In this document: piece by piece, positions 1,469-30,076 of the stretch
How positions within the stretch are numbered: position 1 is the stretch's first letter
How the letters are laid out: each line of letters opens with the position of its first letter
Virus record (IMG/VR): IMGVR_UViG_3300037487_001184
Coordinates: 32,001 to 96,000 of that record
Source of the DNA: a virus
DNA length: 64,000 bases
Direction: 5' to 3' (one strand)
Made by a program: the position numbers and the translations under genes
The notes under the pieces: model-generated
What the model was told of the DNA's origin: nothing
Databases searched by the model: none
Seen by the model: only the letters and a program-made list of their open reading frames with translations

Positions 1469-2024
1469 TCTAGCAAATCATATTAAAATGTACCCGCACT
1501 CAGCAATCATGGAAAAAGAAGGTAGGCTTTATGGGCAGTGGATAATAGGAAACAACTACCGGGCTACACAACCATATCATGGTTCTTACCCTCCATCATA
1601 TGTGGAGCGCGTTAAATCTTTATTCCCAGATAATAAAAAGATACTGCATCTATACTCTGGGATGGTCCAACCAGCAGAAGGAGAACAGACATTCGATATA
1701 AATCCTGCCTTAAATCCCACAAAGTGTGGTAAAGCTGAGGAGTTATCTAATTATTTTTCTGAAAACGCTTTCAACTTGGTCATGTGTGACCCGCCATATA
1801 CTCCAGCAGACGCTGCTAAATATGGTGCCAAGATGCCTATCACGTACAGAGTTATGTCCGAGCTGTATAAAATCGTGGAGGTGGGGGGCGTAGTCGTGTG
1901 GCTTTGCACAAGAATACCACTTTGGAAGAAAGTTGAGTGGAAACTACTCGGAGTGATAGGGCTTTTTTGTGGCACTAATAGGGTGTATCGTGCCGTTGTT
2001 CTACTTCAAAAAATTAATGCTTGA
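1449..2024 (+). CDS. putative amino (N6-A/N4-C) DNA methyltransferase
   Basis: LHLYSG motif-I-like stretch and DPPY catalytic motif IV. Confidence 0.7.
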   Translation: MRYHVHNLANHIKMYPHSAIMEKEGRLYGQWIIGNNYRATQPYHGSYPPSYVERVKSLFPDNKKILHLYSGMVQPAEGEQTFDINPALNPTKCGKAEELSNYFSENAFNLVMCDPPYTPADAAKYGAKMPITYRVMSELYKIVEVGGVVVWLCTRIPLWKKVEWKLLGVIGLFCGTNRVYRAVVLLQKINA

Positions 2025-2048
2025 CAAAAAATTCTAAAATGGTATAAT
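2021..2048 (+). promoter_or_regulatory. sigma70-type promoter for the HNH/Y RNA/tRNA/Ro60 locus
   Basis: TTGACA-16 nt-TATAAT with extended -10 TG. Confidence 0.75.
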
Positions 2049-2146
2049 ACCCCCTAGTTTGGAAGCAGATAATTTTTGAAGAAGGTAGGAATGGTGTTGT
2101 TATAAACTTTCCTACCTACCCTTAAAGTAATACTGGACACTATAAG

Positions 2147-2710
2147 ATGATTTATAATAAAGAAATAAAACTAAATCTATCTGGCTCACGTAGGTACTAT
2201 TACTTTTTTGATGCAGACCATCCACTAAGCAATAAGACTGGGAGGATTCTGTATCACCGCCACGTTGCATCTCTAAAAATAGGAAGATGGTTAACATGTG
2301 ATGAGCATACTCATCACATAGATGGAAACTCATTGAATAATGACCCGGATAATATCACAGTGCTGTCTAGATCAGAGCACAGTAGAATACACAACCCAAA
2401 ACAGCTTTGCGCTATTAATTGTATATTATGTGGGAAGCTGTTTACCCCCCTCAAATCGAAGACTAAATTCTGCGGGACCAAATGTAGAATAGAATCCTAC
2501 AAAAAACTGTATATTCCTAAAGAAGAATTAGCTTCACTGGTTTGGGAAATGCCTTCCTCAAGGGTGGCTGAGCTACTGGGAGTATGTGATAGTGCTATCG
2601 TTAAGCTTTGTAGAAAGTTAGAAGTTAAAAAACCCCCAAGAGGGTACTGGGCAAAAGTTTATGCGAGTGAGAATGCCCTCATGTCGAATATAGGAGTTAC
2701 TTCATGCTAA
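2147..2710 (+). CDS. HNH endonuclease with zinc finger and HTH-like C-terminus
   Basis: HRHV...HHIDGNSLNNDPDNI...SEH; CILCG..FCGTKC. Confidence 0.85.
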   Translation: MIYNKEIKLNLSGSRRYYYFFDADHPLSNKTGRILYHRHVASLKIGRWLTCDEHTHHIDGNSLNNDPDNITVLSRSEHSRIHNPKQLCAINCILCGKLFTPLKSKTKFCGTKCRIESYKKLYIPKEELASLVWEMPSSRVAELLGVCDSAIVKLCRKLEVKKPPRGYWAKVYASENALMSNIGVTSC

Positions 2711-2741
2711 GAAAATACTCCTATAGCTTACTCACTGAGGG
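2676..2741 (+). ncRNA. Y RNA-like element 1 (short; AU-GCU-AA loop)
   Basis: CCCTCA/TGAGGG terminal stem, GTCGAA motif, TATAGGAGT/ACTCCTATA inner stem, shared TACTTC. Confidence 0.65.
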
Positions 2742-2754
2742 ACCAAATATAGAA

Positions 2755-2833
2755 ACGCGTGGCGATAACAAGTGGTTACTTCATAACTCATAGGGATATG
2801 TATTAACGGACCATTTGTAATATCTTCCCGCGT
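2755..2833 (+). ncRNA. Y RNA-like element 2 (short; CU-CAU-A in loop)
   Basis: ACGCG/CGCGT stem, GGCGATA, ACAAGTGGT/ACCATTTGT inner stem, TACTTC. Confidence 0.7.
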
Positions 2834-2841
2834 ATTATTAA

Positions 2842-2918
2842 AACTTCGTGGCGATAGATGTGGGTTACTTCATCTCCAAAATGAGCGACAATACCTACAT
2901 CGGAAATTCCCCGAAGTT
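2842..2918 (+). ncRNA. Y RNA-like element 3 (short; CU-CCA-AA loop)
   Basis: AACTTCG/CGAAGTT stem, GGCGATA, GATGTGGGT/ACCTACATC inner stem, TACTTC. Confidence 0.7.
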
Positions 2919-2930
2919 ACTTTCATTAAC

Positions 2931-3002
2931 ACTTCGTGGCGGCAGATACGGGTTACTTCATCTGAATTGAAACCATAACCTGCATCGCAAATTCCCCGAA
3001 GT
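2931..3002 (+). ncRNA. Y RNA-like element 4 (short; CU-GAA loop)
   Basis: ACTTCG/CGAAGT stem, GGCGGCAG, GATACGGGTTA/TAACCTGCATC inner stem, TACTTC. Confidence 0.7.
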
Positions 3003-3013
3003 TAAGTCTATTA

Positions 3014-3127
3014 AACGTGCGGCGGCTGTATCAGGTACTTCGTGTAACTGGTTAAACACTCTTCCTAATCGGGAGACTTTCTGGGTTCAAATCCCAGAGT
3101 ACCCCTGATACAAATAATACCCACGTT
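3014..3127 (+). ncRNA. yrlA: YrlA-type Y RNA with tRNA-like domain
   Basis: AACGTG/CACGTT and TGTATCAGG/CCTGATACA stems enclose a D arm (GTGT AACTGGTTAA ACAC), an anticodon-like arm and a T arm (CTGGG TTCAAAT CCCAG); no CCA end; Ro60 gene nearby. Confidence 0.8.
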
Positions 3128-3139
3128 ACTAAAATATAT

Positions 3140-3198
3140 CCTTGTGCCCGGATTAATTTTCCACCGAGCAATAAGCTCAACAGCACAGGGAGTTTTTT
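3140..3198 (+). other. structured element (three-way junction plus T-tract), possible terminator or leader
   Basis: CCTTGTGC/GCACAGGG closing stem with internal GGA/TCC and GAGC/GCTC hairpins, then TTTTTT. Confidence 0.4.
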
Positions 3199-3211
3199 AA
3201 TGGGTGATTAA

Positions 3212-3382
3212 ATGACAAAAGATGAAACCATAAAACGTCTTTCTTCGTCTCTTTATGACGCAGCCTCTAACCGCCAAGAAGATAAATCCCCAGAAGCAGT
3301 ATTGAAAACTGTCTCACAGTGGTTAGAAGAATTACCTACTGAGATGGAAAAGCTATTGAAAGAGAAAGAATCGGCTGGTTAG
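3212..3382 (+). CDS. small hypothetical protein (56 aa, not in the ORF track)
   Basis: MTKDETIKRL...ESAG*; GGTG upstream; abuts the HNH start. Confidence 0.5.
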   Translation: MTKDETIKRLSSSLYDAASNRQEDKSPEAVLKTVSQWLEELPTEMEKLLKEKESAG

Positions 3383-3384
3383 TG

Positions 3385-4032
3385 ATGCTAGACCTAACTA
3401 ATAAAAAATTTAATCGGCTGACAGTAGACTCTTTTGTGGGTAGGGATAATTTTCGAGACTCTGTATGGTCCTGTGTCTGTGATTGCGGGAATATTGTAGA
3501 AGTCACAGGAGGCAATTTAAAAAAGGGGAACACAAAGTCCTGCGGATGTCTAAAAAAAGAAGTAAAAAATGAACATAAGATTAAACACGGTCACGCACAA
3601 CACGGAGTAAAGAGCAAAGTGTATACGTGCTGGATAAGTATGATACAGAGATGCTATAACCCCAATAGGGATGGTTATAAAAACTATGGTGGCAGGGGAA
3701 TCAAAGTCTGTGAAAGATGGCACATCTTTGAGAACTTCTATAATGATGTGGGTGATTGTCCAGAAGGTTTAACATTGGATCGCGAGGACAACAATAAGGA
3801 CTACGCTCCTGAGAATTGTAGGTGGGCTACCAACAAGGAACAAAGCAACAATACCAGAAGAAACCATCGTGTAACCTATAAAGGAGAAACTAAAACACTC
3901 TCCCAATGGGCGCAGGATCTAGGTATAAATAAAAGTAAATTAAGAAGGGATTGGATTAAGGTTGGTATTATAACTCCCCTACCAGCCGCCAAATATATTG
4001 CGGGAGTAGAAGATTACAGGCAGGTCTCATAA
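3385..4032 (+). CDS. free-standing HNH homing endonuclease
   Basis: DLTNKKFNRLTV, CVCDCG, SCGC, YGGRGIKVCERW, LDREDNNKDYAPENCRWAT. Confidence 0.88.
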   Translation: MLDLTNKKFNRLTVDSFVGRDNFRDSVWSCVCDCGNIVEVTGGNLKKGNTKSCGCLKKEVKNEHKIKHGHAQHGVKSKVYTCWISMIQRCYNPNRDGYKNYGGRGIKVCERWHIFENFYNDVGDCPEGLTLDREDNNKDYAPENCRWATNKEQSNNTRRNHRVTYKGETKTLSQWAQDLGINKSKLRRDWIKVGIITPLPAAKYIAGVEDYRQVS

Positions 4033-4070
4033 ACCAGCACATCCCGGAGCGTTACCGGGTCCCGCGACCA
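3999..4070 (+). tRNA. atypical tRNA-Met(CAT), initiator-like
   Basis: TGCGGGA/TCCCGCG acceptor, CT-CAT-AA loop, CCA end; degenerate D arm and AGCGTTA T-loop. Confidence 0.6.
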
Positions 4071-4073
4071 GAT

Positions 4074-4148
4074 GCTGGCGTAGTTCAATGGTAGAACAAT
4101 GGTTCTGTACTCCATTTGTTGTGGGTTCAACTCCTACCGCCAGCTCCA
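4074..4148 (+). tRNA. tRNA-Thr(TGT), atypical anticodon loop
   Basis: cloverleaf with CCA; loop TC-TGT-AC. Confidence 0.7.
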
Positions 4149-4154
4149 ACAAAT

Positions 4155-4230
4155 TCCCTGATAGCTCAGTTGGTAGAGCGGAAGGTTGAAGACCTTCGCG
4201 TCGTAGGTTCAATTCCTGCTCAGGGAGCCA
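4155..4230 (+). tRNA. tRNA-Phe(GAA)
   Basis: canonical cloverleaf, loop TT-GAA-GA, CCA. Confidence 0.92.
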
Positions 4231-4233
4231 AAT

Positions 4234-4320
4234 GCAGGAGTGGAGGAACTGGGATACTCAACGGACTTAAAATCCGTTGCCAGAAATGGATTGAGGGTTC
4301 AACTCCCTCCTCCTGTACCA
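4234..4320 (+). tRNA. tRNA-Leu(TAA)
   Basis: cloverleaf with long variable arm, loop CT-TAA-AA, CCA. Confidence 0.9.
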
Positions 4321-4326
4321 ATAAAC

Positions 4327-4403
4327 GGGGGCGTACTCCAATTGGAAGAGAGACAGGATTTAGACTCCTGCCAGTGTAGGCTCGTATCCTACCGCCCCTA
4401 CCA
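4327..4403 (+). tRNA. tRNA-Leu(TAG) with short variable arm
   Basis: cloverleaf, loop TT-TAG-AC, T-loop CTCGTAT, CCA. Confidence 0.75.
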
Positions 4404-4409
4404 AGTAAC

Positions 4410-4498
4410 GGGGGGTTAGCCTAGTAGCGAGGGCGGTTGGCTGTAACCCAACTACATATAATGAAACACTGGAAGTTCAACTCTTCCCCCACCCACCA
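4410..4498 (+). tRNA. tRNA-Tyr(GTA), mismatched acceptor stem
   Basis: GTTGG CT-GTA-AC CCAAC, long variable region, T arm, CCA. Confidence 0.72.
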
Positions 4499-4521
4499 GA
4501 ATGGCTGAATAAGCCTAAAGC

Positions 4522-4588
4522 GGAGCGGCGGAGACTAGAGATACTTCAAACTGTTACTTTGACCAAACTCTAGTCAACACTACCCTCC
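4522..4588 (+). ncRNA. Y RNA-like element 6 (short; CU-GUU-AC loop) just upstream of Ro60
   Basis: GGAG/CTCC stem, GGCGGAG, GACTAGAG/CTCTAGTC inner stem, TACTTC. Confidence 0.7.
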
Positions 4589-4626
4589 ACATCCTTTAAT
4601 TCCACCAACACATATGGGAGGCGAAC

Positions 4627-6192
4627 ATGTCAAGATTCAATCAAAAAGCTGTTAATCCGAGGGATACAATCAACCATGAGGGTGCAAAAGCTTATGGTAT
4701 GTTGAATCCAGAAATGGAACTGTACGCCAGGACCGCTAGTTATCTGGCACAGGACACCAACTACTGCAAGGTTGCTGATGCAAATGCGCGCATCAAGGAA
4801 CTTGTTGGCATCTGCGACAAGAACTTTGTTGGTAGACTTGCAGGGTACTTGAGACATCAGATGTATCTCAGGTCCACACCCATCTTGTTACTGACTTATC
4901 TTGCACAGTGCGGGAAGCTGGAAGCGTGGATGGTGCAAGATGTCATCTCTAGGGCTGACGAGATTAAAGAGTTGCTTGCAGCATGGCAGCAAGAGACTGG
5001 CAGAAGGGACCTAAAGAAGCTTCCGAAGGCTATGCAGAATGGTATTGCAAAAGCATTCGGTAAGTTTAACGCGTTCCAGTTCAGGAAGTACAACAAGCAG
5101 GGCAGAGAGGAAATCACATTCCTCGATGCTATGCGTATCACCCATCCGAAGCCCATGAATGAGGAGCAGAATACCACTTATAAGGCTATTAAAGAGGGTA
5201 ATCTCCCACCGATTGAAACATGGGAAACCGTGCTATCATCTGGTATGAATAAGAGAGAAGCGTGGGAGCTACTTATCAAGGGGCACAAGCTTCCCTACAT
5301 GGCACTTCTACGTAACCTGGTTAATATTTCTAAAGCCGATGTTGATAATGTCTATATTGATATGGTTGTTAGCCAACTCACCAACAAAGATGAGATTCTC
5401 AGGTCTAAGCAGTTCCCGTTCAGATGGACTGCTGCTCACGACCAGCTAGAGCTTATGGGAGGAAACCAATTCATTACCACCGCATTCCAGCGCGCACTTG
5501 AAGAGGCTCTGAAGACTTCAGTACAGAACATTGCTGGGCTTAACTTGAAACAGAACACTATAATAGCTTGTGATGTGTCAGGGTCCATGCGTAATCCACT
5601 CAGCGTTAAGTCTAAAATTCAGCTTGTAGATGTGGGTTTGCTTATGGGTAAGTTAATTAGCGCGCATAATCCCAGGTCTTTGTATGGTGTGTTTGGTGAC
5701 ATCTGGATGCCTGTACATAGTGGCTCCTCTGTTCTAGAGAAAGCTTACTATGACCCCCACCAGATAGGGTTCTCCACACAGGGGCATAAGGTTATTGATT
5801 GGGCTGCAGATAACAACATAAAGGCAGAGGTGTTCATGTTCTTCTCAGACATGGAAATTTATTCCCTTTCTGATAAGGACTTCTTTCGTAGTACCTCTAG
5901 ATTGTATCTACCCATTACTAACACAGTTACTTGGGATGAAAGGAGAGCATCATTTAGAAAATCATGGAACAATTATAAGAAGCTTATGCCTAACGCTAAG
6001 TGTTACTTGTTTGATTTATCTTCTTATGGCAGCACACCAGTTGATGTTCAGCGTGATGATGTTATCTTCTCTTCTGGTTTTTCTGAGAAGATATTTGAAG
6101 TGCTGGATGGTACTGGAAACTGGAACGAAACACGAACTAAAATAATGATGGGAGCTAGTAAAGTAAGGGAGGAGGAAATGCAGCATGAGTAA
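4627..6192 (+). CDS. rsr: Ro60/TROVE-domain RNA-binding protein (Rsr) with vWA domain
   Basis: N.EGAKAY, YLRHQMYLRS.P, RADE, F..FQFRKY, ETWE, LPYMALLRNL, QFPFR, DVSGSM MIDAS. Confidence 0.93.
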   Translation: MSRFNQKAVNPRDTINHEGAKAYGMLNPEMELYARTASYLAQDTNYCKVADANARIKELVGICDKNFVGRLAGYLRHQMYLRSTPILLLTYLAQCGKLEAWMVQDVISRADEIKELLAAWQQETGRRDLKKLPKAMQNGIAKAFGKFNAFQFRKYNKQGREEITFLDAMRITHPKPMNEEQNTTYKAIKEGNLPPIETWETVLSSGMNKREAWELLIKGHKLPYMALLRNLVNISKADVDNVYIDMVVSQLTNKDEILRSKQFPFRWTAAHDQLELMGGNQFITTAFQRALEEALKTSVQNIAGLNLKQNTIIACDVSGSMRNPLSVKSKIQLVDVGLLMGKLISAHNPRSLYGVFGDIWMPVHSGSSVLEKAYYDPHQIGFSTQGHKVIDWAADNNIKAEVFMFFSDMEIYSLSDKDFFRSTSRLYLPITNTVTWDERRASFRKSWNNYKKLMPNAKCYLFDLSSYGSTPVDVQRDDVIFSSGFSEKIFEVLDGTGNWNETRTKIMMGASKVREEEMQHE

Positions 6193-6430
6193 ATTACTAA
6201 TTATTATCCTAGTGTTATTTGGAGCAGCTCAAAGCTGGGCACAAAGCAAGGATGTTAGGAACAGCAGCGGTGAGCTAGTTCAGGTATGGCGGCAACAGGG
6301 TAATCAGACTGATGTAAGAAGCGGAGATAACGAACTGTTGTATACACGTAACAGACAGGGTAACACTGTTACTATACGAAGCGCATCAGGAGAGGAAGAA
6401 GGGAGCGAGTACTACGATGACAGGGATTAA
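6185..6430 (+). CDS. small secreted protein with internal repeats
   Basis: signal peptide ending SWA; repeated DVR..SGEL...RQGN unit. Confidence 0.65.
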   Translation: MSKLLIIILVLFGAAQSWAQSKDVRNSSGELVQVWRQQGNQTDVRSGDNELLYTRNRQGNTVTIRSASGEEEGSEYYDDRD

Positions 6431-6740
6431 AAGTATACCACTGGGCAGCATTAATGACCTTAGCACACTCCTGGACGTATTGAACAGGAAACCAGGTAAA
6501 GAAAGAACCACCGATTACGGTGTTGGCGTACATGGGAGCATATTCATGGAGAATAAGAAGATAGACAGAAGAGTAGAAGCAGGACCACCGATAAATATCA
6601 TAACGATGAGACTAACCGAGAGTGAACTTTATACTCTACGCTGGGCTTTGCAGACTGCCATTACGCAGTCAAGGGAGGGTGACTTCAATCCTAAGACTAC
6701 TAAGGTAATCGAGAAGATTCTTAAAGGATTGGGTGACTAA
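6417..6740 (+). CDS. hypothetical protein
   Basis: coupled ORF ending just before the terminator. Confidence 0.6.
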   Translation: MTGIKSIPLGSINDLSTLLDVLNRKPGKERTTDYGVGVHGSIFMENKKIDRRVEAGPPINIITMRLTESELYTLRWALQTAITQSREGDFNPKTTKVIEKILKGLGD

Positions 6741-6745
6741 AAGAG

Positions 6746-6772
6746 AAAGCCCCCAGATGGGGGCTTTTTTTT
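6746..6772. terminator. intrinsic terminator between convergent transcription units
   Basis: AAAGCCCCC-AGAT-GGGGGCTTT followed by a T run; A-rich on the other side. Confidence 0.85.
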
Positions 6773-8477
6773 ATACCGCTGTTGTCGGGATAGCCGGAGG
6801 CTTAGGAGAAGGAACAGCGGGAGGCTTAGCCGGAGGGGTCGCTGGTGTTTCTGGAGGGGTATCCGTAGGAGTAGTTGGGGTATCAGGTAACTTGGCTGTA
6901 TCTACCGGAGGTTTATCCTGGGGCAATCCTGATGCTGTTTCCAACTCAGGTATAACCAACCTACCTTGGTCAAGTAACTTTCCTACTATTGCGTACGGAT
7001 AATCAGCCCACACCGCATTAATCTTACTAATCTGTGTACCCATAAGATTGTTCAACATATCAATTCCGTTGTTAATGGAAGTGGCTCCCATCGAACCAAA
7101 AGACTTCATGGCATTGATTATATCATTGGTGCCCACCGTCTGCGGACCCTTACTCTTATACTCCCAGAGAAAACATTCAAACTCCCCCCACACTACAGTA
7201 CGATTTATAACCTCATCAAACGATGTTCGTTCAGGAATAAAGATTTGCTGTTCAGCAAGCATCTGTGCTGTGAAGGCACTGGAGTAAGAATAAACTCCAA
7301 TCCCCCCAAGGTATAGGGCGGGTAATCTAAAAGCCTGACGAATTACATCGTAAGAGTTTTCCATATACCCCTTAAACATGAGGTCTTGGTTCCTGTTAGA
7401 AATCATGTTCTCAATTCTTATCTTAACATTCGAATCATTATCAAGCCCTGTTATCTCTGGCACTGCTTCCAGTAAACCTGTCCTGTTGAAATTGTCTGCA
7501 CTTCTAAACGATTGAATTAAATCCTGCAGCTCTGCTCTAGAATCATCCGTCAGCGAACCATTCTCCACTATGATTAACATAGGGGGGATGCCTTGGTTAT
7601 CAAACAAGTCGAAGTTCACATACTGTGCTGTAGACCTGCCAGCAACCTCAGTCAACGCGCCTATCCAGCGCGGCACACCATAAGCCTTCCCGCCAAAGTT
7701 ATTCTTAATCCAAAGCAACTCAGTAGCTAATTCTGTACTCTTACCGCCACCTTTGGTTGTAAGATACTCTCCTGTCAACGCGTCCATCGGTCTGGTATCC
7801 CCAAAGGTTTTGAACCACTTGAGTTTGTTATCAGATTGGTTGACCTGTACATACCTACGAAACTTCTTCTTTATATTAAAAGCAGTGGGATTCCCGTCTC
7901 GTATAATTATAGTCTTTACATTAACCGGATCTGTATCCAAATAACACATCCTGGTATCTGTAACAGGATTATAATAAGCAAAAGTGAGAAGGTTAGTCTT
8001 GGGTCGTCTAACCATTTCTATGGCTGAGTAGCCTACCACCTCATAATCCTCACGCGCAAGAACGCGCACTGATTGAAATGACTGATCCTCATTAACCTGG
8101 TCAAAGAAGTTTTCAAGTAACATCTTCTGCCGCTGAGCTTCTGAAGAATCTCGCTCGGTTAAATCATTGCCTTTGAAGACAAGTTCATACCCAAACCCAT
8201 CAACATTCTTCTGCATAGCTTTAACACATGCCTGTAAAACATCTGATGATTCATATGTGCTGTATAGTGACGAAGGTATCATATCAGGCTGGATGATAGC
8301 CTCATACGCGCCGTAGTAATCAATGAACGGGTCTTTATCTTCGCGCCCGCGCCCAAGCATATCTGGAGGTCCAGACCCACCTGTCTTTAAAGGTGTGACT
8401 TCATTAACTCGTTGTGTTCTAAACTTAGTCACACCCAAATTTATTCTACTCCGCTCTTGTAGTTCTTCATCAGTCAT
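6771..8477 (-). CDS. phage portal protein with Pro-rich C-terminal tail
   Basis: DYEVVGYSAIEMVR, YGVPRWIGAL, FDNQGIPPMLIIVENG, IRQAFRLPALYLG. Confidence 0.85.
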   Translation of the reverse strand: MTDEELQERSRINLGVTKFRTQRVNEVTPLKTGGSGPPDMLGRGREDKDPFIDYYGAYEAIIQPDMIPSSLYSTYESSDVLQACVKAMQKNVDGFGYELVFKGNDLTERDSSEAQRQKMLLENFFDQVNEDQSFQSVRVLAREDYEVVGYSAIEMVRRPKTNLLTFAYYNPVTDTRMCYLDTDPVNVKTIIIRDGNPTAFNIKKKFRRYVQVNQSDNKLKWFKTFGDTRPMDALTGEYLTTKGGGKSTELATELLWIKNNFGGKAYGVPRWIGALTEVAGRSTAQYVNFDLFDNQGIPPMLIIVENGSLTDDSRAELQDLIQSFRSADNFNRTGLLEAVPEITGLDNDSNVKIRIENMISNRNQDLMFKGYMENSYDVIRQAFRLPALYLGGIGVYSYSSAFTAQMLAEQQIFIPERTSFDEVINRTVVWGEFECFLWEYKSKGPQTVGTNDIINAMKSFGSMGATSINNGIDMLNNLMGTQISKINAVWADYPYAIVGKLLDQGRLVIPELETASGLPQDKPPVDTAKLPDTPTTPTDTPPETPATPPAKPPAVPSPKPPAIPTTAV

Positions 8478-11035
8478 GTAATATATTCCTCCAAATCTGC
8501 ATAATTATATCCTACCTTCGCCTCTACTACCCAAGGCACTTTCAATTCCACCCCAAAATATTCCTTCAGGGGGAGATTTTCCATCTCATATTGTATTATT
8601 GGTGCATAAAAGTCAACCCTATCTTCTCTACATTCGAAGATTAACTCATCATGAACAAATAAAATTGCTTTTATCTCTTTAGGATTCAACAATCCCTTTC
8701 GAAGAAGTTCATTGCAAGCCAGTAGTACAGAGTCTGAGGCAGCCGCCTGTATAGAATGGTTATAAGCCTGTCGTTCACTCCTTCCCGCGGCTTCCTGGTC
8801 TAGTGAATTTATCTCAGGGAGTCTCCTACGTCTACCAAGGGGGGACGAAACGTAACCAAGTTTCCTGGCTGACTTCCGTATCTTACTATGATAGGCTGCA
8901 ATCCCTGGATACGTTTTAAAGAATAGTGCATGATAATGCTTAGCTTCATCTATAGTCAAATCAATATCGTATTGAAGTTTGGCATATTTCTGATATCCAT
9001 ATACCCCCATCCCATATAACAACCCAAAGACGAGAGACTTTGCGCGCTTACGCGCAAGCTTGAAATCGTCTTCAGGAACCTCGTCCCTAGTCTTACCCAA
9101 AAGAAGTTCTGCGGTCTTAGTATGCACATCCTCCTTATTCCTGTATACCTCCAACAAGGTCGGGTCCTCAGAACAGTGAGCCATCCACCTAACCTCCGCC
9201 TGAGACGCATCCAACGCTAAGAATACTGAACCAGGCTTGGCTATTATAAGCCTACGCATCTCCCTGCCGGTACCACTAGCAGGTATGTTCTGTAAGTTAG
9301 GCGCGTTGACACTCGTACGCCCAGTAGTAGCAGTAACTAAAGAATAGGTGGGATGAATCCTACCGTCAGACCTGACTGACTGCTCGAAGTTCTTAATATA
9401 TCTAGTGACTAAAGTGTTTAATTTACTCCACTCCTCATATACCACTATAAACTCTAAAGCCTTCTTATGAATCCTGCCTTTATCCTTCAGATAATTCCTA
9501 GCCTTAGCATCTACACTAAAGGTGCCCCCCTTCGAAGTCTTGAAAATGGGCTCCAAGTGATAACCATCCTCTGCAAACAACACATCTCTAATTAAACCAG
9601 CTCTCGTAAGCTTTATCCCTTGTGGTGTGTGTCTCTCCAATACACCGGGGGGGATGAGTGCCACAGCAAGCTTATAACATGAGACTAATTCTCTAGATAT
9701 TGTATCCTTAACAATAGGAAGTTGTTCCATATCAACCAACGCGCCATTGTTAGCAAACTCAAACAGCGACGTTGATATTGTAGGCATCACAAACTTAGAG
9801 AAATAATTAGCTACGCGTTTAGTTTCAAGAAGTCTGTTGCGCGTACTTATAGCAGAGACGTAAGTGGTCGCTGCATCGGCACACGCGTAGTAGGATAGTT
9901 CGCTGCAAGGAACGGATAACATATTGGACTTATCGAATTTGTTGTCAAACTCAGTAGAGTAAGAAGAATCTAGGGTAGTGAAGTGCTTCCTAACCTGCTC
10001 TAAAGATGCTCTGGCGTGAAGGTTCTCATCTAAAAGATGAGCCGCAGCCTGAACATCCATACCATAAGCTCTTGGTTTAATGGGGGGAAGTCCCTCACGA
10101 ATACAGAGCGCGTTGATGAATAGTAAATCAAAATTTCCATTGAACATGTACTTGATAATATCTGGAGATTCTATCAAACGCACAAGGTCACTCAGCTTCT
10201 TATCGAAGTTGGTGGACTTCCTAACCCCTATTTTCTGTTCTACCTTCTTTCTACCGACCTTGGCAGTAAAATCAACATAAAAATCCGGATTATCTTCACA
10301 CATCTCATGCAGATATACCTGGTATGCGGTCTCCTGATCAGCACACAGTGAATAAGATATAAGAAGATTGTTATTGCCTAGCCAATCAAGTCCCTGTGTC
10401 TCTGTATCTAAAGCAACTGCCCTTGGTTTCTCATCGAACAACTTATCCAAACTCTCCAGTTCTTTAAATCTGAATGTGCTCATGGGATCAATTGGCACAC
10501 AACCACTATCAAGAAAGCGTTTAATCTTAGCAAAATCTGTGATTAGTTCAGACGTAAAGCTGTGAGCGCGTAGACAATAAGCCGGGTGATAGGTAGGAAG
10601 CACCCAGCAATTAAACTCCTCAGACCATACAAAAACACCGTGCCTCTTCTTTATGTTACGCTGCCTCATTACCTGCCATGTAGCTATATCCCCGAGTGTA
10701 ACAATCAGTTTAGGTTTGATAGCTGTGGCAGCTCTAACCATAAATCTTCTACAGTGTTGGAGAAGAGTGTTCACTTCTTTTACAGTATAAGCATCCTTAT
10801 CAATCCTACACACAGCAGCGTTTGATAGAAAAAAACTATCTAGATTAAGCTCGGTAAGAAATGCTACTTTCTTAAGCAGGTCTCCAGAGGGACCAACAAA
10901 AGGTTGTCCTTCTACCAACTCCATTCTTCCAGGTGATTCCCCAACTAGCATTACATCAGCGTTGACATTACCTCTAAACGGAACTTGTTTTAGTCTCCGA
11001 TAGTTTGGGCATTCTTTGTCAAGACACTTCTGCAT
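8474..11035 (-). CDS. polA: family A DNA polymerase with N-terminal uracil-DNA glycosylase (family 4)-like and 3'-5' exonuclease domains
   Basis: VGESPG..E...GQPFVGPSG and TYHPAY (UDG); LDTET (exo); DASQAEVR, KSLVFGLLYG, VHDEL (pol motifs A/B/C). Confidence 0.93.
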   Translation of the reverse strand: MQKCLDKECPNYRRLKQVPFRGNVNADVMLVGESPGRMELVEGQPFVGPSGDLLKKVAFLTELNLDSFFLSNAAVCRIDKDAYTVKEVNTLLQHCRRFMVRAATAIKPKLIVTLGDIATWQVMRQRNIKKRHGVFVWSEEFNCWVLPTYHPAYCLRAHSFTSELITDFAKIKRFLDSGCVPIDPMSTFRFKELESLDKLFDEKPRAVALDTETQGLDWLGNNNLLISYSLCADQETAYQVYLHEMCEDNPDFYVDFTAKVGRKKVEQKIGVRKSTNFDKKLSDLVRLIESPDIIKYMFNGNFDLLFINALCIREGLPPIKPRAYGMDVQAAAHLLDENLHARASLEQVRKHFTTLDSSYSTEFDNKFDKSNMLSVPCSELSYYACADAATTYVSAISTRNRLLETKRVANYFSKFVMPTISTSLFEFANNGALVDMEQLPIVKDTISRELVSCYKLAVALIPPGVLERHTPQGIKLTRAGLIRDVLFAEDGYHLEPIFKTSKGGTFSVDAKARNYLKDKGRIHKKALEFIVVYEEWSKLNTLVTRYIKNFEQSVRSDGRIHPTYSLVTATTGRTSVNAPNLQNIPASGTGREMRRLIIAKPGSVFLALDASQAEVRWMAHCSEDPTLLEVYRNKEDVHTKTAELLLGKTRDEVPEDDFKLARKRAKSLVFGLLYGMGVYGYQKYAKLQYDIDLTIDEAKHYHALFFKTYPGIAAYHSKIRKSARKLGYVSSPLGRRRRLPEINSLDQEAAGRSERQAYNHSIQAAASDSVLLACNELLRKGLLNPKEIKAILFVHDELIFECREDRVDFYAPIIQYEMENLPLKEYFGVELKVPWVVEAKVGYNYADLEEYIT

Positions 11036-17702: not shown

Positions 17703-18339
17703 GCCTCCTTACTGGTGTAGTTAATACTTTCTCGTCACTCCAGCCAATATTTGACCGATGTATTAATGTAGCAGAGTTTATGCCAGTATGCCTTACCCAC
17801 TCCGCAATAGTCTTTCGTTCTCCTTCAAAAGTCATCCATCTATTGCTTCTTCTATTGTTACATTGTTCTAGCATAGTAACCCATCGGCAATTCCCTGGTT
17901 CATAATCCCCGTCATTATCTATACGATCTAATGTCAGATCATCAGAGCAATCCCCCATGTCTTCGTAGAAATTGACAAATCCGTCTCGACCTAACCACCT
18001 ATCACAGACTTTTATACCCCGACCTCCGTAGCTCTTATAAGCTTTATGACCAATCTCATAGCATCTCCGCTGCATATCTGCCCAGGCTAGGTGGGCTCTG
18101 GTCTCAATACCATTGCGTAAGCATTGCCCATGTCTTGTTTGTGTCTCCTTAATACGATCTAACTTATAACAACCACACGAGTTTGTGTTACCTATTTTTA
18201 AATCTGGTCCGCGTGCTTCTATTATATTTCCACAATCACACAAACAACTCCATCGTGAAGTACGCTTAACTACACCGACAAATTCTTGCACGGTCAATCT
18301 ACCGAATTTCTGTCCCACTAGATTCAATCTCTTACTCAT
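17668..18339 (-). CDS. free-standing HNH homing endonuclease
   Basis: LVGQKFGRLTV, CLCDCG, SCGC, YGGRGIKVCDRW, LDRIDNDGDYEPGNCRW. Confidence 0.9.
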   Translation of the reverse strand: MSKRLNLVGQKFGRLTVQEFVGVVKRTSRWSCLCDCGNIIEARGPDLKIGNTNSCGCYKLDRIKETQTRHGQCLRNGIETRAHLAWADMQRRCYEIGHKAYKSYGGRGIKVCDRWLGRDGFVNFYEDMGDCSDDLTLDRIDNDGDYEPGNCRWVTMLEQCNNRRSNRWMTFEGERKTIAEWVRHTGINSATLIHRSNIGWSDEKVLTTPVRRHVEYKRYCYSK

Positions 18340-18380
18340 TATTACCACTCCTTATTGTGTCTATCCTTAGTGGTTTATTT

Positions 18381-18431
18381 GCTGGCAGGTGGCTAAGGTT
18401 TCCACTTTTCGGACCATGAATCCTAGCCAGC
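18381..18431 (-). ncRNA. conserved structured leader upstream of HNH (copy A)
   Basis: GCTGGCTAGG...CCGAAAAGTGG...CCACCTGCCAGC; same motif at 23771 and 30012. Confidence 0.7.
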
Positions 18432-18440
18432 GCTTTTCAA

Positions 18441-19644: not shown

Positions 19645-21494
19645 TACAACTCACAAGAGTTACCTGCACAGGCAAATTCTCGACTACCTGTGGTAGTATC
19701 TGTATTCTCATACTCTGAAAGTTTACTGAAGTCAAGGACTGGGAGTTCTCTCAACAGTCTATGATATTCTATTTCTGATACCTCCTCATACGGAGCTTGC
19801 GCGTACGACTTGTTCTCGTATGGGAAGAAAGCAACTCCATTAATAGTATCAAAATGTTTATACACATAAGCTATAATCTCCAACCACTCATCATCTTTAA
19901 CAAAGATGGTGCAGCTCATGTTCTGTTCTGCCCAATTCTCTACTAACATTCTATACCACTCAAGTTGACCAATTGCTGTATCCTGCTCACGAGTCTTCGC
20001 TCCGTCTGGAGAACGCATAGGGAACGAGAATATTGCAGTATCGTGGTTGCCTTTGTCTAACTCATAAGGCATACCTTGGTCAACCATCATCCTAAACAGA
20101 GCATCGTGCATCGAGATACGTACGCGTCTAAGATAATAATTAGCCCACCTGGAGTGCATACCTGAAGAGCAATCAACCATCTGACTCACAGTACCACTAG
20201 GCTTTCCAAGCGTTATAGCTGCTGGCATATTTATACCAAGTGCTGCTGATGCCTGTTTAGCAGTCTTCACAGCGGTAGTACGCCAATGGCGTAGTGTCTC
20301 TGGTGTTATCAGATTTATATTATCACAGAGTCCTGTAAGTGATACCCCTAGTAACCTCTCTTCTTCTGCATTTTTAGCCCACTCAGGACGTAAATGAGGG
20401 AAGTATGTAAGTGTAGACTGAATACATCCCATCCAGGTCGCTGTTCGTATCTTGTCTGCTACACTATCAAAATCATCATCTGCTCGAATGACTACCTCAG
20501 TTAAATTGCATAAACCCATATCACGTAGTAGTGTTTCCCCACAGGGATTTGATATCACTATAGCACTCTTATCTCTACGTTTAGGGCTTCGTTTTCTCGC
20601 TGCCACTAAATTAAATATGCCACGCTCACCAGAGCCAGACTTAGCCATATCTATGAACTCTTGGGTAAACTTGAGGACATCAGGTTTCTTTCTATAAACT
20701 GCTGAGATATTTGCCATGAACCTTCTTGGGTGAAAGTTACCCTGCTTTGCATTCTGCATATCCATATCATCTACATCACATAAACATATCATAGCAGTCC
20801 GACGAACACCACCACAAACCACTGCAGACCCAATCTCACACATCATATCAAAAACTTCTATAGATTTAAGCTTACGATCTTGTGCTTCTATTATTGTTTC
20901 TCTCAAAAATTCCAAGCAGCGCGCTAGAGGCTCAGGACCGGAAGCATAACCGCCTGATATCACTAAGGGAGTTCCCGCTGGTCTCACTTGAGAGTAATCA
21001 AACACTGCATCTCTACCGTTGAACCATTCCTGTATACCAAAATCAACTGCTTTCTTCCAACCTAACCTGCTATCTCCAACAACATGCCTCAATGTGGGCA
21101 AATTCCGCTGCTTTTTTATCTCAGGAAGTTGCTCTAACCACTTCGCTTCCACTGAAAACCCAACTCCAGTACCAGCAAGTTCGATATACATTGCCTCACC
21201 AAACCCTTCTAGTGAGGATGAGCAGAAGCCTGAACAACCGTACGCAGCTATATTGTCTCGTCTTACATTCTCCCCAGCAGACCAGACAAGTCGCATACTT
21301 GCCATAACACCTTTTGTAAGCATATAATCTTTAATTTTTTTCTTTGTCTTGGTGGGTATATTCTGGCAGTTCTTCGTTTCGTTAAATATAAAATTGCAGT
21401 ATCTATCGACGGTTTCACTCCAGGTTTCACGCCGCTGAAGTTCTGGAAGGAAACGACTATATGTTCTTAAAAAGATGAAATCTTCGTACACCAT
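19644..21494 (-). CDS. nrdJ: class II (B12-dependent) monomeric ribonucleoside-triphosphate reductase
   Basis: RTYSR, GTGVGFSV, NPCGE, CNLTE, KPSGTVS, C-terminal CAGNSCEL. Confidence 0.92.
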   Translation of the reverse strand: MVYEDFIFLRTYSRFLPELQRRETWSETVDRYCNFIFNETKNCQNIPTKTKKKIKDYMLTKGVMASMRLVWSAGENVRRDNIAAYGCSGFCSSSLEGFGEAMYIELAGTGVGFSVEAKWLEQLPEIKKQRNLPTLRHVVGDSRLGWKKAVDFGIQEWFNGRDAVFDYSQVRPAGTPLVISGGYASGPEPLARCLEFLRETIIEAQDRKLKSIEVFDMMCEIGSAVVCGGVRRTAMICLCDVDDMDMQNAKQGNFHPRRFMANISAVYRKKPDVLKFTQEFIDMAKSGSGERGIFNLVAARKRSPKRRDKSAIVISNPCGETLLRDMGLCNLTEVVIRADDDFDSVADKIRTATWMGCIQSTLTYFPHLRPEWAKNAEEERLLGVSLTGLCDNINLITPETLRHWRTTAVKTAKQASAALGINMPAAITLGKPSGTVSQMVDCSSGMHSRWANYYLRRVRISMHDALFRMMVDQGMPYELDKGNHDTAIFSFPMRSPDGAKTREQDTAIGQLEWYRMLVENWAEQNMSCTIFVKDDEWLEIIAYVYKHFDTINGVAFFPYENKSYAQAPYEEVSEIEYHRLLRELPVLDFSKLSEYENTDTTTGSREFACAGNSCEL

Positions 21495-23735: not shown

Positions 23736-23770
23736 ATCTACCCCCTGTAGTAAACCCCCGATTTTGTTGT

Positions 23771-23828
23771 TTAATGGGCAGGTGGTTCAGGAAGACCACT
23801 TTTCGGTTCCGGTAACCTAGCCCATTAA
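23771..23828 (-). ncRNA. conserved structured leader upstream of HNH (copy B)
   Basis: TTAATGGGCTAGG...CCGAAAAGTGG...CCACCTGCCCATTAA. Confidence 0.7.
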
Positions 23829-29975: not shown

Positions 29976-30011
29976 TACCGCACCCCTTATTGTGTTTTCC
30001 TTAGTATTATC

Positions 30012-30064: not shown

Positions 30065-30076
30065 AAATTTGTCCCA

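What the first reader, a model, noticed from the sequence alone, without database searches (positions are those of the whole stretch)
2676..6192. Phage Ro60 with six Y RNA-like genes spread through a tRNA cluster
Seen: six elements (2676-2741, 2755-2833, 2842-2918, 2931-3002, 3014-3127, 4522-4588) share one architecture. Each has a terminal stem, a G(G/T)CG(A/G) motif, an 8-11 bp inner stem and an invariant TACTTC. The stems differ in sequence but keep pairing. Five are tandem and the sixth sits just upstream of the Ro60/TROVE gene, all downstream of one promoter. Established: bacterial and some phage Rsr genes lie next to Y RNAs with a GNCGA-like Ro60-binding strand, and YrlA has a tRNA-like domain. 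Inference: one Ro60 is loaded with a panel of different Y RNAs, only one of which keeps the full tRNA domain. I am not aware of such an expanded panel being described.
Basis: partly seen in the sequence, partly recalled or inferred. Interest (0 to 1): 0.9.

Follow-up and report, generated by a model that had tools for sequence, protein, structure and literature searches.

The report
Phage Ro60 with six Y RNAs
A 124-kb uncultured phage carries six small RNA genes that share one conserved "handle" next to its gene for the RNA-binding ring protein Ro60; they are very probably its partner Y RNAs, a known kind of particle in an enlarged, uncatalogued form that is common in related phages and Bacteroidota.

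Summary
All six elements exist at the stated places and fold as described. They are the only six matches to the family model in the 124,229-bp phage genome. A covariance model built from elements 1-4 alone recovers elements 5 and 6. It also gives 55 matches in 43 other phage TROVE loci, all on the TROVE strand. The two stems covary strongly. The handle has the layout of the published YrlA Ro60-binding module: GNCG-type motif, inner stem, conserved UA. In other loci it encloses sub-threshold Rfam YrlA matches. So they are Y RNA-like partners of the phage Ro60. Binding and expression are untested.

A panel of six is not exceptional. 21 of 43 phage loci have three or more copies and 4 have six or seven. 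In Bacteroidota, 31 of 40 loci have three or more, up to eight. Element 5 carries a normal-order cloverleaf, unlike YrlA. None of the six reaches Rfam YrlA. I found no paper describing such arrays; supplements were closed. This scan has noted similar arrays before on other DNA. Verdict: real, a new variant of a known kind, moderate interest.

The parts
2021..2048 (+). Sigma-70-type promoter-like site (TTGACA, 16 nt, TG-TATAAT) upstream of the first HNH gene and the array
   Evidence: 12 of 12 matches with a TG extension. This is a consensus match only. The stretch 1900-2076 is kept in a near relative (run X2, record 1).
2147..2710 (+). HNH endonuclease ORF (187 aa) whose last 36 nt overlap element 1. 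Probably a mobile insertion, not part of the RNA system.
   Evidence: Pfam HNH_3, 32.8 bits, E 5.2e-8. One contig of run X2 has 246 of its own letters where the window has 876 (2077-2952), which is too short for this ORF.
2675..2742 (+). Element 1, short Y RNA-like. Its handle has GUCGAA and its apical hairpin is 3 bp with the heptaloop AUGCUAA.
   Evidence: R1 (built from elements 3+4) gives 35.5 bits, E 2e-6. R3 gives 62.3 bits. Fold z -4.08. Loop.
2753..2835 (+). Element 2, short Y RNA-like (handle GGCGAUA)
   Evidence: R1 31.2 bits, E 2.4e-5. R3 52.8 bits. Fold z -3.57.
2842..2918 (+). Element 3, short Y RNA-like (handle GGCGAUAG)
   Evidence: R3 61.4 bits. Fold z -4.04.
2930..3003 (+). 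Element 4, short Y RNA-like (handle GGCGGCAG). It is a close paralogue of element 3, with one compensatory U-A to C-G change in the inner stem.
   Evidence: 88% mean column identity to element 3. R3 59.0 bits. Fold z -2.34.
3013..3128 (+). Element 5, long Y RNA-like. It has the same handle, and its inner stem runs on into a tRNA-like cloverleaf.
   Evidence: R2, built without it, gives 23.6 bits, E 5.8e-4. R3 36.7 bits. Fold z -4.26. In a near relative it differs at 3014 (A to G, pair kept as G-U) and at 3117 in the loop.
3033..3105 (+). tRNA-like domain inside element 5. The order is D arm, anticodon-like arm, T arm. It has no free ends.
   Evidence: ARAGORN calls tRNA-Ile (aat). Rfam tRNA gives 32.2 bits with a 5-nt loop in place of the anticodon loop and a mismatch at the first acceptor pair. 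The T arm lies at 0.66 of the element's length.
3212..3382 (+). Small ORF (56 aa) of unknown function between element 5 and the second HNH gene
   Evidence: No Pfam family. The stretch is kept in the X2 relative.
3382..4032 (+). Second HNH endonuclease gene (216 aa), which separates the array from the tRNA genes
   Evidence: PHROG 374 HNH endonuclease, E 3e-77. DNA similarity to HNH genes of Staphylococcus phages.
4074..4498 (+). Five tRNA genes: Thr-UGU, Phe-GAA, Leu-UAA, Leu-UAG, Tyr-GUA. They lie between elements 5 and 6.
   Evidence: ARAGORN. Rfam tRNA 42.8-63 bits.
4519..4591 (+). Element 6, short Y RNA-like (handle GGCGGAG). Its apical hairpin is 5 bp with the heptaloop CUGUUAC. It ends 36 nt before the Ro60 start codon.
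   Evidence: R2, built without it, gives 16.9 bits, E 0.041, with the next hit at 9.1 bits. R3 37.2 bits, E 6e-6. Fold z -3.53. Loop.
4627..6192 (+). Ro60/Rsr homologue (521 aa): TROVE domain plus a vWA-like part with a DVSGS metal-site motif
   Evidence: Pfam TROVE 87.4 bits, E 1.6e-24; vWA_Ro60 20.7 bits, below its cut-off of 27.7. Thermus phage phiLo Ro60 (9KOP, 9L5Y), E 8.6e-18. D316, S318 and S320 are invariant in 25 homologues.

Best explanation
The six elements are genes for Y RNA-like small RNAs, the partner RNAs of the phage-encoded Ro60.

All six share a Ro60-binding 'handle'. It consists of a terminal stem made by the 5' and 3' ends, a bulged pyrimidine, a GG/CC step, an internal loop beginning CG(A/G), an inner stem, and then the single-stranded, near-invariant UACUUC. 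The apical 'cargo' differs. Elements 1-4 and 6 carry short hairpins. Element 5 carries a whole tRNA-like cloverleaf.

Inferred mechanism: the RNAs are transcribed together with the neighbouring tRNAs and the Ro60 gene. Host tRNA-processing and other nucleases cut them out. Ro60 binds each one through the handle. The different cargoes then gate Ro60 or tether it to different partners, as Y RNAs tether Rsr to PNPase in Deinococcus and Salmonella.

Shown here: the architecture, the family relationship, the covariation and the linkage to TROVE genes. Not shown: transcription, processing, binding and any partner.
For: 1. Family. A model built from elements 3+4 finds elements 1 and 2 (35.5 and 31.2 bits). 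A model built from elements 1-4 finds elements 5 and 6 next in rank (23.6 and 16.9 bits), with noise at 9.1 bits or less in 64 kb, filters off.

2. Linkage to TROVE.
- The model from elements 1-4 alone gives 55 matches (E<=10) in 43 IMG/VR TROVE loci (425 kb). All 55 are on the TROVE strand.
- With the wider model R3 there are 113 matches at E<=0.01, the window's six included. All 113 are on the TROVE strand: 104 upstream and 9 downstream of the gene, and 80 within 1 kb upstream.
- In 80 mostly Bacteroidota TROVE loci there are 308 matches at E<=1. All 300 listed are on the TROVE strand, mostly just downstream of the gene.
- Control: two 40-kb tRNA-rich phage stretches with no annotated TROVE gene give a best hit of 14 bits, E 0.84, with strands mixed.
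- The whole phage genome holds only the six.

3. Covariation.
- On 44 sequences, 90.1% of cells are paired against 55.8% in shuffles. 17 of 18 pairs change on both sides. The score is 0.859 against 0.218 (0 of 500 shuffles reach it), and slid controls give 0.20 or less.
- The picture is the same on 113 sequences: 88.2% against 54.6%, and 18 of 18 pairs.

4. Likeness to known Y RNAs.
- Chen et al. 2014 (PMC4201824, sections 5, 6 and 10 read) define YrlA by a 5' GNCGAAN0-1G motif near the 5' end and a conserved YUAY after it.
- The Rfam YrlA consensus shows that order: motif, stem, CUA.
- Rfam YrlA matches inside R2/R3 hits are sub-threshold but significant. L042 gives 50.7 bits, E 1.9e-8, and L005 gives two. 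There are 11 more in 5 of 7 bacterial loci.
- Thermus phage phiLo Ro60 binds two upstream Y RNA-like RNAs that have a CGAA motif in an internal bulge (PMC12135203, passages read). That protein is the best solved match to this one.

5. The protein is a plausible Ro60: TROVE domain, MIDAS-type DVSGS motif.
Against: - No RNA run holds the stretch, so there is no evidence of transcripts.
- Binding to this Ro60 was not tested and could not be.
- Rfam YrlA does not match any of the six at E<=10. It reaches its gathering score in none of the 14 phage or 15 bacterial loci scanned.
- The published motif GNCGAAN0-1G is kept only loosely. All six have GNCG, three have GNCGA and one has GNCGAA.
- Element 6 alone is marginal under the model built without it (E 0.041).
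- The covariation counts were made on alignments fitted to the model's structure, and the sequences are related. R3 was trained on some of the loci it was then run on. The calibration of all three models is short, so E-values are rough.
- Element 1 overlaps the end of an HNH ORF by 36 nt.
Confidence: 0.8

Rival explanations
1. The elements are tRNA-derived structured spacers. They would be processing or stability signals, or decayed tRNA genes, within a polycistronic tRNA/mRNA transcript, and would have no specific tie to Ro60.
For: They lie in a tRNA-rich stretch. Element 5 scores as a tRNA (32.2 bits). Phage TROVE genes often sit inside tRNA clusters, so co-location could be indirect.
Against: Two tRNA clusters (25 and 19 annotated tRNAs) in phage stretches with no annotated TROVE gene give no match, best 14 bits. 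The handle also flanks TROVE genes in loci where ARAGORN finds no tRNA gene, such as L007, L009, L014 and L017. The single-stranded motifs (GNCG, UACUUC) are near-invariant while the stems vary. That fits a protein-binding site rather than a plain hairpin.
Confidence: 0.07
2. The RNAs are real and stable, but their main binder is another tRNA-handling protein, with Ro60 only a neighbour. The binder could be a phage protein such as the CCA-adding enzyme or the RNA ligase encoded elsewhere in the genome, or a host factor.
For: The genome encodes a PolyA_pol/CCA-adding family protein (63.3 bits) and an RNA ligase (95.7 bits). Many cargoes are tRNA parts. M. smegmatis YrlA is cut by RNase P and receives CCA (PMC4201824, section 8 passages).
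Against: The constant part of the RNAs tracks the TROVE gene across phages and Bacteroidota. It has the layout of the published Ro60-binding module. The cargo, which is where other proteins would bind, is the variable part.
Confidence: 0.08
3. The repeats are recognition or homing sites tied to the two flanking HNH endonuclease genes.
For: HNH genes lie at 2147-2710 and 3382-4032, on either side of the five tandem elements.
Against: The closest arrays (L009-L011) have six contiguous elements. In L010 no ORF of 50 aa or more lies wholly between the first element and the TROVE start except a 63-aa frame over the RNAs. A near relative lacks room for the first HNH gene yet keeps element 5. The stems covary, which a DNA site would not need.
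Confidence: 0.02

Closest known systems
YrlA and YrlB, the Y RNA-like RNAs bound by Rsr (Ro60) in Salmonella Typhimurium and Mycobacterium smegmatis, and their predicted relatives in 254 bacteria and 22 phages (Chen et al. 2014, PMC4201824; Rfam RF02553; YrlA structure in bioRxiv 10.1101/312249, passages read)
   Same: They are encoded within a few kb of the Ro60 gene on the same strand. The 5' and 3' ends pair into a stem carrying a GNCG(A)-type motif on the 5' strand, followed by an inner stem and a conserved UA. The design is modular, with a Ro60-binding module and a variable effector module. There is at least one tRNA-like member per locus plus hairpin-type members (YrlB-like).
   Different: None of the six reaches Rfam YrlA. 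The tRNA-like member has the normal order D, anticodon-like, T instead of T, acceptor-like, D. There are six copies, five of them short. UACUUC is invariant, where the paper names only YUAY. The exact GNCGAAN0-1G motif is kept in none in full.
Deinococcus radiodurans Yrn1 and Yrn2 with Rsr and PNPase (PMC4201824, sections 6, 9 passages and 10)
   Same: Yrn2, tRNA-Asp and Yrn1 are made as one precursor, so Y RNAs and tRNA genes are interleaved as they are here. Yrn1 is modelled with an anticodon-like arm that has a short loop and a T arm in the normal order, like element 5. Up to four small RNAs are encoded upstream of rsr.
   Different: According to the paper, the Deinococcus Ro60-binding helix keeps both strands in the metazoan manner. 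No sequence comparison with Yrn1 was made here.
Thermus phage phiLo Ro60 with Yrl1 and Yrl2 (PMC12135203, passages read; PDB 9KOP, 9L5Y)
   Same: It is a phage-encoded Ro60 with Y RNA-like genes directly upstream. The RNAs have a stem-bulge-stem form with a CGAA motif in the internal bulge, and binding was shown in vitro. It is the best solved sequence match to this protein (E 8.6e-18).
   Different: There are two RNAs there and six here. Protein similarity is distant and covers residues 14-342 only. No tRNA-like member is mentioned in the passages I read.
Metazoan Ro60 with Y RNAs (four Y RNAs in humans; recalled, not from a call)
   Same: One ring protein is served by a small family of paralogous RNAs that share the binding stem and differ in the loop.
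   Different: According to PMC4201824 section 10, no tRNA-like domain is apparent in metazoan Y RNAs. Their genes are not in an operon-like array with the protein gene (recalled).

Membership tests
Ro60/Rsr protein (TROVE + vWA) | TROVE (HEAT-repeat ring) domain | tested here: met
   Pfam PF05731, 87.4 bits against a cut-off of 23, E 1.6e-24.
Ro60/Rsr protein (TROVE + vWA) | C-terminal vWA domain with a MIDAS metal site (DxSxS) | tested here: inconclusive
   Pfam vWA_Ro60 gives 20.7 bits, below its cut-off of 27.7. The motif DVSGS is present at residues 316-320, and D316, S318 and S320 are invariant in 25 aligned homologues. The fold was not predicted.
Ro60/Rsr protein (TROVE + vWA) | Sequence relationship to Ro60 proteins of known structure | tested here: met
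   phiLo Ro60 9KOP/9L5Y, E 8.6e-18. RO60 9NEN, E 9.5e-4.
Y RNA (Ro60-bound small RNA) | Encoded close to the Ro60 gene on the same strand | tested here: met
   The six lie 36-1885 nt upstream on the + strand. 113 of 113 family matches in 44 sources are on the TROVE strand.
Y RNA (Ro60-bound small RNA) | Stem formed by the 5' and 3' ends, carrying a conserved 5'-strand motif | tested here: met
   Folds. Both helices covary. GNCG is present in 6 of 6.
Y RNA (Ro60-bound small RNA) | Bound by Ro60, which is needed for stable accumulation | not testable with these tools
   No RNA-protein prediction or experiment is available here.
Y RNA (Ro60-bound small RNA) | Discrete small transcript | not testable with these tools
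   No run on record as RNA holds the stretch.
YrlA (Rfam RF02553) | Score at or above the gathering threshold of 69 bits | tested here: not met
   No match to any of the six at E<=10. The only YrlA row (4115-4181, 20.4 bits) spans two true tRNAs.
YrlA (Rfam RF02553) | tRNA-like domain in the order T arm, acceptor-like stem-loop, D arm | tested here: not met
   Element 5 runs D, anticodon-like, T, with the T arm at 0.66 of its length. Elements 1-4 and 6 have no T arm.
YrlA (Rfam RF02553) | 5' GNCGAAN0-1G motif | tested here: inconclusive
   GUCGAAU, GGCGAUAA, GGCGAUAG, GGCGGCAG, GGCGGCUG and GGCGGAGA. All six have GNCG, three have GNCGA, one has GNCGAA, and none has the full motif with its closing G.
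YrlA (Rfam RF02553) | Conserved YUAY / UA after the handle stem | tested here: met
   UUAC in elements 1-4, GUAC in element 5, AUAC in element 6. UAC is present in 146-150 of 150 bacterial copies.
tRNA (element 5 only) | Cloverleaf reaching the Rfam tRNA threshold | tested here: met
   32.2 bits against 29. ARAGORN calls it.
tRNA (element 5 only) | Seven-nt anticodon loop and free acceptor end | tested here: not met
   The Rfam alignment gives a 5-nt loop and a mismatched first acceptor pair. The acceptor-like stem continues into the handle's inner stem.

The most novel reading that the evidence does not exclude
The Ro60 handle is a display scaffold. Phages and Bacteroidota would use arrays of handle RNAs to present different tRNA parts on one Ro60 ring: anticodon stem-loops in the short forms, the D/T elbow in YrlA-type forms, and a whole cloverleaf in element 5. 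In the phage this would be part of a tRNA-protection kit, together with its own tRNAs, CCA-adding enzyme and RNA ligase. The RNAs would act as decoys or sensors for host tRNA-cleaving defence nucleases, or would recruit repair enzymes to damaged tRNAs.

Hint for this reading. Among 83 short family members, 33 of 96 predicted hairpins have 7-nt loops, against 6.6 when the apical part is shuffled. Of these, 24 have U at loop position 2 and a purine at position 6, against 0.93. Element 6 is a 5-bp stem with the loop CUGUUAC, and element 1 a 3-bp stem with the loop AUGCUAA.

Caveats. The folds are minimum-free-energy predictions. The sequences are related, so counts are not independent. A few of these loops are T-loop-like.
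Probability: 0.15. Interest if true: 0.8.

Novelty: new variant of a known kind. Interest (0 to 1): 0.5.

Why it matters
Ro60 and Y RNAs are conserved from bacteria to humans, but what the RNAs' variable ends do is still largely open. Described bacterial and phage systems have about two Y RNAs.

This phage, its relatives and many Bacteroidota carry arrays of three to eight RNAs. These share one handle, with an invariant UACUUC that the published YrlA description names only as YUAY. Their cargoes differ and are mostly tRNA-like. The Rfam YrlA model does not catch them at its threshold.

That gives a defined sequence and structure signature for annotating a large, mostly unannotated set of small RNA genes. 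It also gives a compact natural panel for asking what the cargo does: six RNAs and one protein in 4 kb. For this window alone it is one more instance of a recurrent pattern, not a singular oddity.

Tried and rejected
- Rfam. No family other than tRNA covers the six at gathering or at E<=10. YrlA reaches its gathering score in none of the 14 phage or 15 bacterial loci scanned.
- MAFFT on the six aligned only the 5' halves. I used model-guided alignments instead.
- The single Ro60 protein found no relative in IMG/VR. The 25-protein alignment did.
- INPHARED phages: no DNA relative, with at most 6% of the query covered. Protein matches are at most 32.7% identical.
The contigs of the closest Ro60 homologues (P0002-P0025, 41-48% identity) could therefore not be fetched, except those also in IMG/VR (L009-L011).
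- Expression: no RNA holder is listed.
- Read laying used contigs of DNA runs only. Parts without cover say nothing. A joint 4176 to 4492 in run X2 rests on 25 letters of a tRNA and is weak.
- The whole-genome RNA search of three bacterial genomes scored only 150 of 3,201-8,625 candidates each. Its only two matches lie in the L049 TROVE locus. The two genomes with no match are not evidence of absence.
- The second 40 bacterial loci (L088-L127) were not counted per locus. They are included only. Alignment A8 holds 150 of the 151 matches.
- Two reviews (PMC10870794, PMC6047535) are not held. The supplementary tables of Chen et al. 2014 list how many YrlA-like RNAs each genome has. They were not seen and may already show multi-copy loci.
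- Claim of no paper describing arrays of more than about four Y RNA genes beside Ro60: it rests on full-text searches and on reading parts of three papers.
- Complex prediction was not used, because it does not take RNA as the partner.
- Readings considered and set aside: decayed tRNA genes, terminators or processing hairpins, and HNH homing repeats (see the rival explanations).

Full report
**What is there.**

The window is bases 32001-96000 of a 124,229-bp IMG/VR virus record. The record has direct terminal repeats and is estimated to be 100% complete. Tail sheath, baseplate, portal, DNA polymerase and ribonucleotide reductase genes mark it as a contractile-tailed phage. G+C is 41.7%.

On the + strand, from 2021 to 6192, the features lie in this order:
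- a 12-of-12 sigma-70-type promoter-like site at 2021-2048;
- an HNH endonuclease ORF at 2147-2710 (Pfam HNH_3);
- five tandem structured elements (2675-3128), separated by 6-11 nt;
- a 56-aa ORF;
- a second HNH gene at 3382-4032 (PHROG 374, E 3e-77);
- five tRNA genes at 4074-4498;
- a sixth element at 4519-4591;
- 36 nt further on, a 521-aa TROVE protein at 4627-6192 (Pfam TROVE, E 1.6e-24).

**Check of the observation.**

Fold z-scores against 200 dinucleotide shuffles run from -2.34 to -4.26.

Read together, the common plan is as follows. There is a terminal stem of 4-7 bp, then one bulged pyrimidine, then a two-pair step. The step is GG/CC in five elements and GU/AC in element 1, which is itself a compensatory change. 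An asymmetric internal loop follows: its 5' side begins CG(A/G) and its 3' side is 7-8 A/U-rich nucleotides. Then comes an inner stem of 8-9 bp, then UACUUC.

The simple pattern G(G/T)CG(A/G), 8-14 nt, TACTTC occurs seven times on both strands of the whole genome. These are the six elements and one at 18257-18279 on the minus strand. Shuffles give a mean of 0.84.

**Are they one family?**

MAFFT aligned only the 5' halves, so I built covariance models stepwise.

- R1 was built from elements 3 and 4 alone. It finds element 1 (35.5 bits, E 2e-6) and element 2 (31.2 bits, E 2.4e-5) in the 64-kb window with filters off. Element 6 scores only 10.3 bits and element 5 is not found.
- R2 was built from elements 1-4. 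It finds element 5 (23.6 bits, E 5.8e-4) and element 6 (16.9 bits, E 0.041) as the next two hits. Everything else scores 9.1 bits or less.
- R3 was built from 44 family members. It gives 36.7 and 37.2 bits for elements 5 and 6. It finds exactly the six elements in the whole phage genome at E<=1.

**Linkage to Ro60 genes elsewhere.**

The Ro60 has no close relative among isolated phages; identity is at most 32.7%. A clade of metagenomic proteins is 41-48% identical. Next come Bacteroidota proteins at 35-40%.

An alignment of 25 of these proteins retrieved 43 IMG/VR TROVE loci and 80 bacterial loci, nearly all Bacteroidota.

R2 had seen only this window's elements 1-4. It gave 55 matches (E<=10) in the 43 phage loci, and all 55 are on the TROVE strand.

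R3 at E<=0.01 gave 113 matches in the window plus the 43 loci, all on the TROVE strand. 104 are upstream and 9 downstream of the gene, and 80 lie within 1 kb upstream.

Per-locus counts in the 43 phage loci:
- 34 have at least one match, 21 at least three, 7 at least five, and 4 have six or seven.
- Of the 9 loci with none, 4 hold no sequence upstream of the gene.
- The three closest loci (L009-L011, Ro60 44-48% identical) each have six contiguous elements ending 28-29 nt before the start codon.

In the first 40 bacterial loci, at E<=0.001, 38 have at least one match, 31 at least three, 13 at least five and 8 at least six. The maximum is eight. All are on the TROVE strand and mostly just downstream of the gene. 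Over all 80 bacterial loci there were 308 matches at E<=1.

As a control I took two 40-kb stretches of phages that have 25 and 19 annotated tRNA genes and no annotated TROVE gene. They gave nothing better than 14 bits (E 0.84), on mixed strands.

**Covariation.**

On the 44 R2 matches, 90.1% of cells form standard pairs, against 55.8% when 3' partners are shuffled. 17 of 18 pairs show changes on both sides. The covariation score is 0.859 against 0.218 (0 of 500 shuffles reach it). Sliding the partners by 1-3 columns gives 0.20 or less.

On the 113 R3 matches the figures are 88.2% against 54.6%, 18 of 18 pairs, and 0.859 against 0.213.

These alignments were fitted to the model's structure and the sequences are related, so the figures lean towards the structure. 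The contrast with the slid controls is nevertheless large.

The unpaired letters behave in the opposite way. In 150 bacterial copies, G9, C11, G12 and each letter of UACUUC are kept in 146-150 copies. The same holds in the phage set.

**Why Y RNA.**

Chen et al. 2014 (PMC4201824; outline, passages, and sections 5, 6 and 10 read) describe YrlA RNAs as follows:
- they are encoded within 4 kb of Ro60 on the same strand;
- they have a GNCGAAN0-1G motif near the 5' end, thought to be the Ro60 site;
- a conserved YUAY follows;
- they carry a tRNA-like domain.

The YrlA structure paper (bioRxiv 10.1101/312249, passages read) notes that the UA of that motif is conserved and makes a kink next to the Ro60-binding module.

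The Rfam YrlA consensus printed shows the same order as the handle here: motif, stem, CUA. Where the cargo is of YrlA type, Rfam YrlA matches inside the handle:
- L042, 50.7 bits, E 1.9e-8;
- two matches in L005;
- 11 matches, with E from 2e-8 to 2e-3, in 5 of 7 bacterial loci.

All of these are below the gathering score of 69 bits.

The best solved sequence match to this protein is the Ro60 of Thermus phage phiLo (E 8.6e-18). That protein was shown to bind two upstream Y RNA-like RNAs that have a CGAA motif in an internal bulge (PMC12135203, passages read).

**How this set differs from YrlA.**

None of the six matches Rfam YrlA at E<=10.

Element 5 carries a cloverleaf in the normal order: a D arm, a 5-bp arm with a 5-nt loop, then a canonical T arm. 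It scores as a tRNA (32.2 bits) and ARAGORN calls it tRNA-Ile. Its acceptor-like stem runs straight on into the handle, so it has no free ends. This is the topology the paper describes for Deinococcus Yrn1, not for YrlA.

Across the family the cargo is mixed. Of the 66 long copies in the phage set:
- 39 have a T arm in the first half, which is the YrlA order;
- 10 have it in the second half, 3 of them (element 5 among them) at 0.61-0.67 of the length;
- 17 have no strict T arm.

Lengths are bimodal. 47 copies are 64-91 nt, 63 are 108-167 nt and 3 are over 200 nt. This window is unusual among its relatives only in that five of its six copies are short, and in that the array is split.

**The split array.**

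In L009-L011 the six elements are contiguous. Here, two HNH genes, a small ORF and five tRNAs are interposed.

One contig of a DNA run (X2, record 1, 2,131 nt) matches window 1900-2076 and 2953-3374. It has 246 of its own letters where the window has 876. A near relative therefore has no room for the first HNH ORF between the promoter-like site and the array. In that relative, element 5 differs at two places only: 3014 (A to G, which keeps the pair as G-U) and 3117 (in the loop).

Interleaving of Y RNAs with a tRNA gene in one precursor is known from Deinococcus (PMC4201824, section 9 passage).

**Mechanism.**

Shown here: the common architecture, the family relationship, covariation of both stems, invariance of the unpaired motifs, and tight same-strand linkage to TROVE genes.

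Inferred:
- co-transcription, from the promoter-like site or from others;
- excision by host nucleases;
- binding of each RNA to the phage Ro60 through the handle;
- use of the cargo to gate Ro60 or tether it to other factors, as with Rsr, Y RNA and PNPase.

The same genome encodes a CCA-adding-family enzyme (63.3 bits) and an RNA ligase (95.7 bits), but no RtcB. This fits a role in tRNA upkeep during infection but does not prove one.

**A further hint.**

Following a lead from other notes of this scan, I looked at the apical hairpins of 83 short family members. 33 of 96 predicted hairpins have 7-nt loops, against 6.6 when the apical part is shuffled. 24 of these have U at position 2 and a purine at position 6, the pattern of anticodon loops, against 0.93.

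Element 6 (5 bp plus CUGUUAC) and element 1 (3 bp plus AUGCUAA) fit this pattern. Elements 2, 3 and 4 do not.

The folds are predictions, the sequences are related, and a few of the loops are T-loop-like. I treat this as a lead only.

**Novelty.**

The kind is known: Ro60 with neighbouring Y RNAs, in phages too.

In the papers I could read, characterised systems have about two Y RNAs. Up to four small RNAs lie near Deinococcus rsr. 355 predicted YrlAs were reported for 276 genomes.

I found no paper describing arrays of three to eight handle-sharing RNAs beside Ro60, the UACUUC signature, or the short anticodon-loop-like forms. The supplementary tables of Chen et al. 2014 and two reviews were not available to me and may bear on this.

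Other agents of this scan have reported similar arrays beside Ro60 and Ro60-like genes in many other phages. My own counts agree that multi-copy sets are the rule.

I class this as a new variant of a known kind, of moderate interest.

Noticed in passing
window 18365-18433, 23756-23827, 29998-30065 (minus strand): Three matches above the gathering score to the Rfam family int-alpA RNA (41-49.5 bits against 35.8). Another note of this scan places them upstream of HNH genes.
   Followed up: no
window 2077-2952, compared with a contig of run X2: A near relative has 246 letters where the window has 876. The first HNH ORF, and probably elements 1-3 in their present form, are therefore replaced there. 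The promoter-like stretch and element 5 are kept.
   Followed up: partly
window 4616-4621, and about 6166-6174: Strong Shine-Dalgarno-like GGAGG runs precede the Ro60 gene and the next ORF, and the promoter-like site is a perfect sigma-70 consensus. The nearest cellular Ro60 relatives are in Bacteroidota, which as I recall rarely use such signals. The host is therefore unclear.
   Followed up: no
own genome G000:C1:3367-3741 and 19928-20398 (outside the window): There is a PolyA_pol/CCA-adding family gene (422-aa frame) and an RNA ligase gene (340-aa frame). No RtcB was found. Together with the tRNAs and Ro60 they look like a tRNA-upkeep kit.
   Followed up: partly
short family members in A7 and A8; window 4519-4591 and 2675-2742: Seven-nt apical loops with U at position 2 and a purine at position 6 are much more frequent than in shuffled controls (24 against 0.93).
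   Followed up: partly
L056 and L051 (contigs of Bacteroidota metagenome-assembled genomes): The TROVE gene and its RNA array sit among dense tRNA gene clusters: 19 and 11 Rfam tRNA matches in about 9.5 kb. These contigs may be phage or prophage DNA binned with a bacterial genome.
   Followed up: no
L024 2313-2662: ARAGORN calls a tmRNA gene with the tag ANNTFAVAA on a 212-kb viral contig, about 2.3 kb upstream of its TROVE gene.
   Followed up: no
L042 1176-1240 (minus strand): A sub-threshold match to the type II hammerhead ribozyme, 29.1 bits against 37.
   Followed up: no
window 4115-4181: The only Rfam YrlA row in the window (20.4 bits, E 0.4) spans the T arm of tRNA-Thr and the D arm of tRNA-Phe. 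This is the dimeric-tRNA false positive that Chen et al. 2014 warn about.
   Followed up: yes
window 4176-4492, compared with run X2: A high-depth contig joins 4176 to 4492, which would skip three tRNA genes. The joint rests on only 25 letters of a tRNA. The tRNA set between elements 5 and 6 may differ among near relatives.
   Followed up: no
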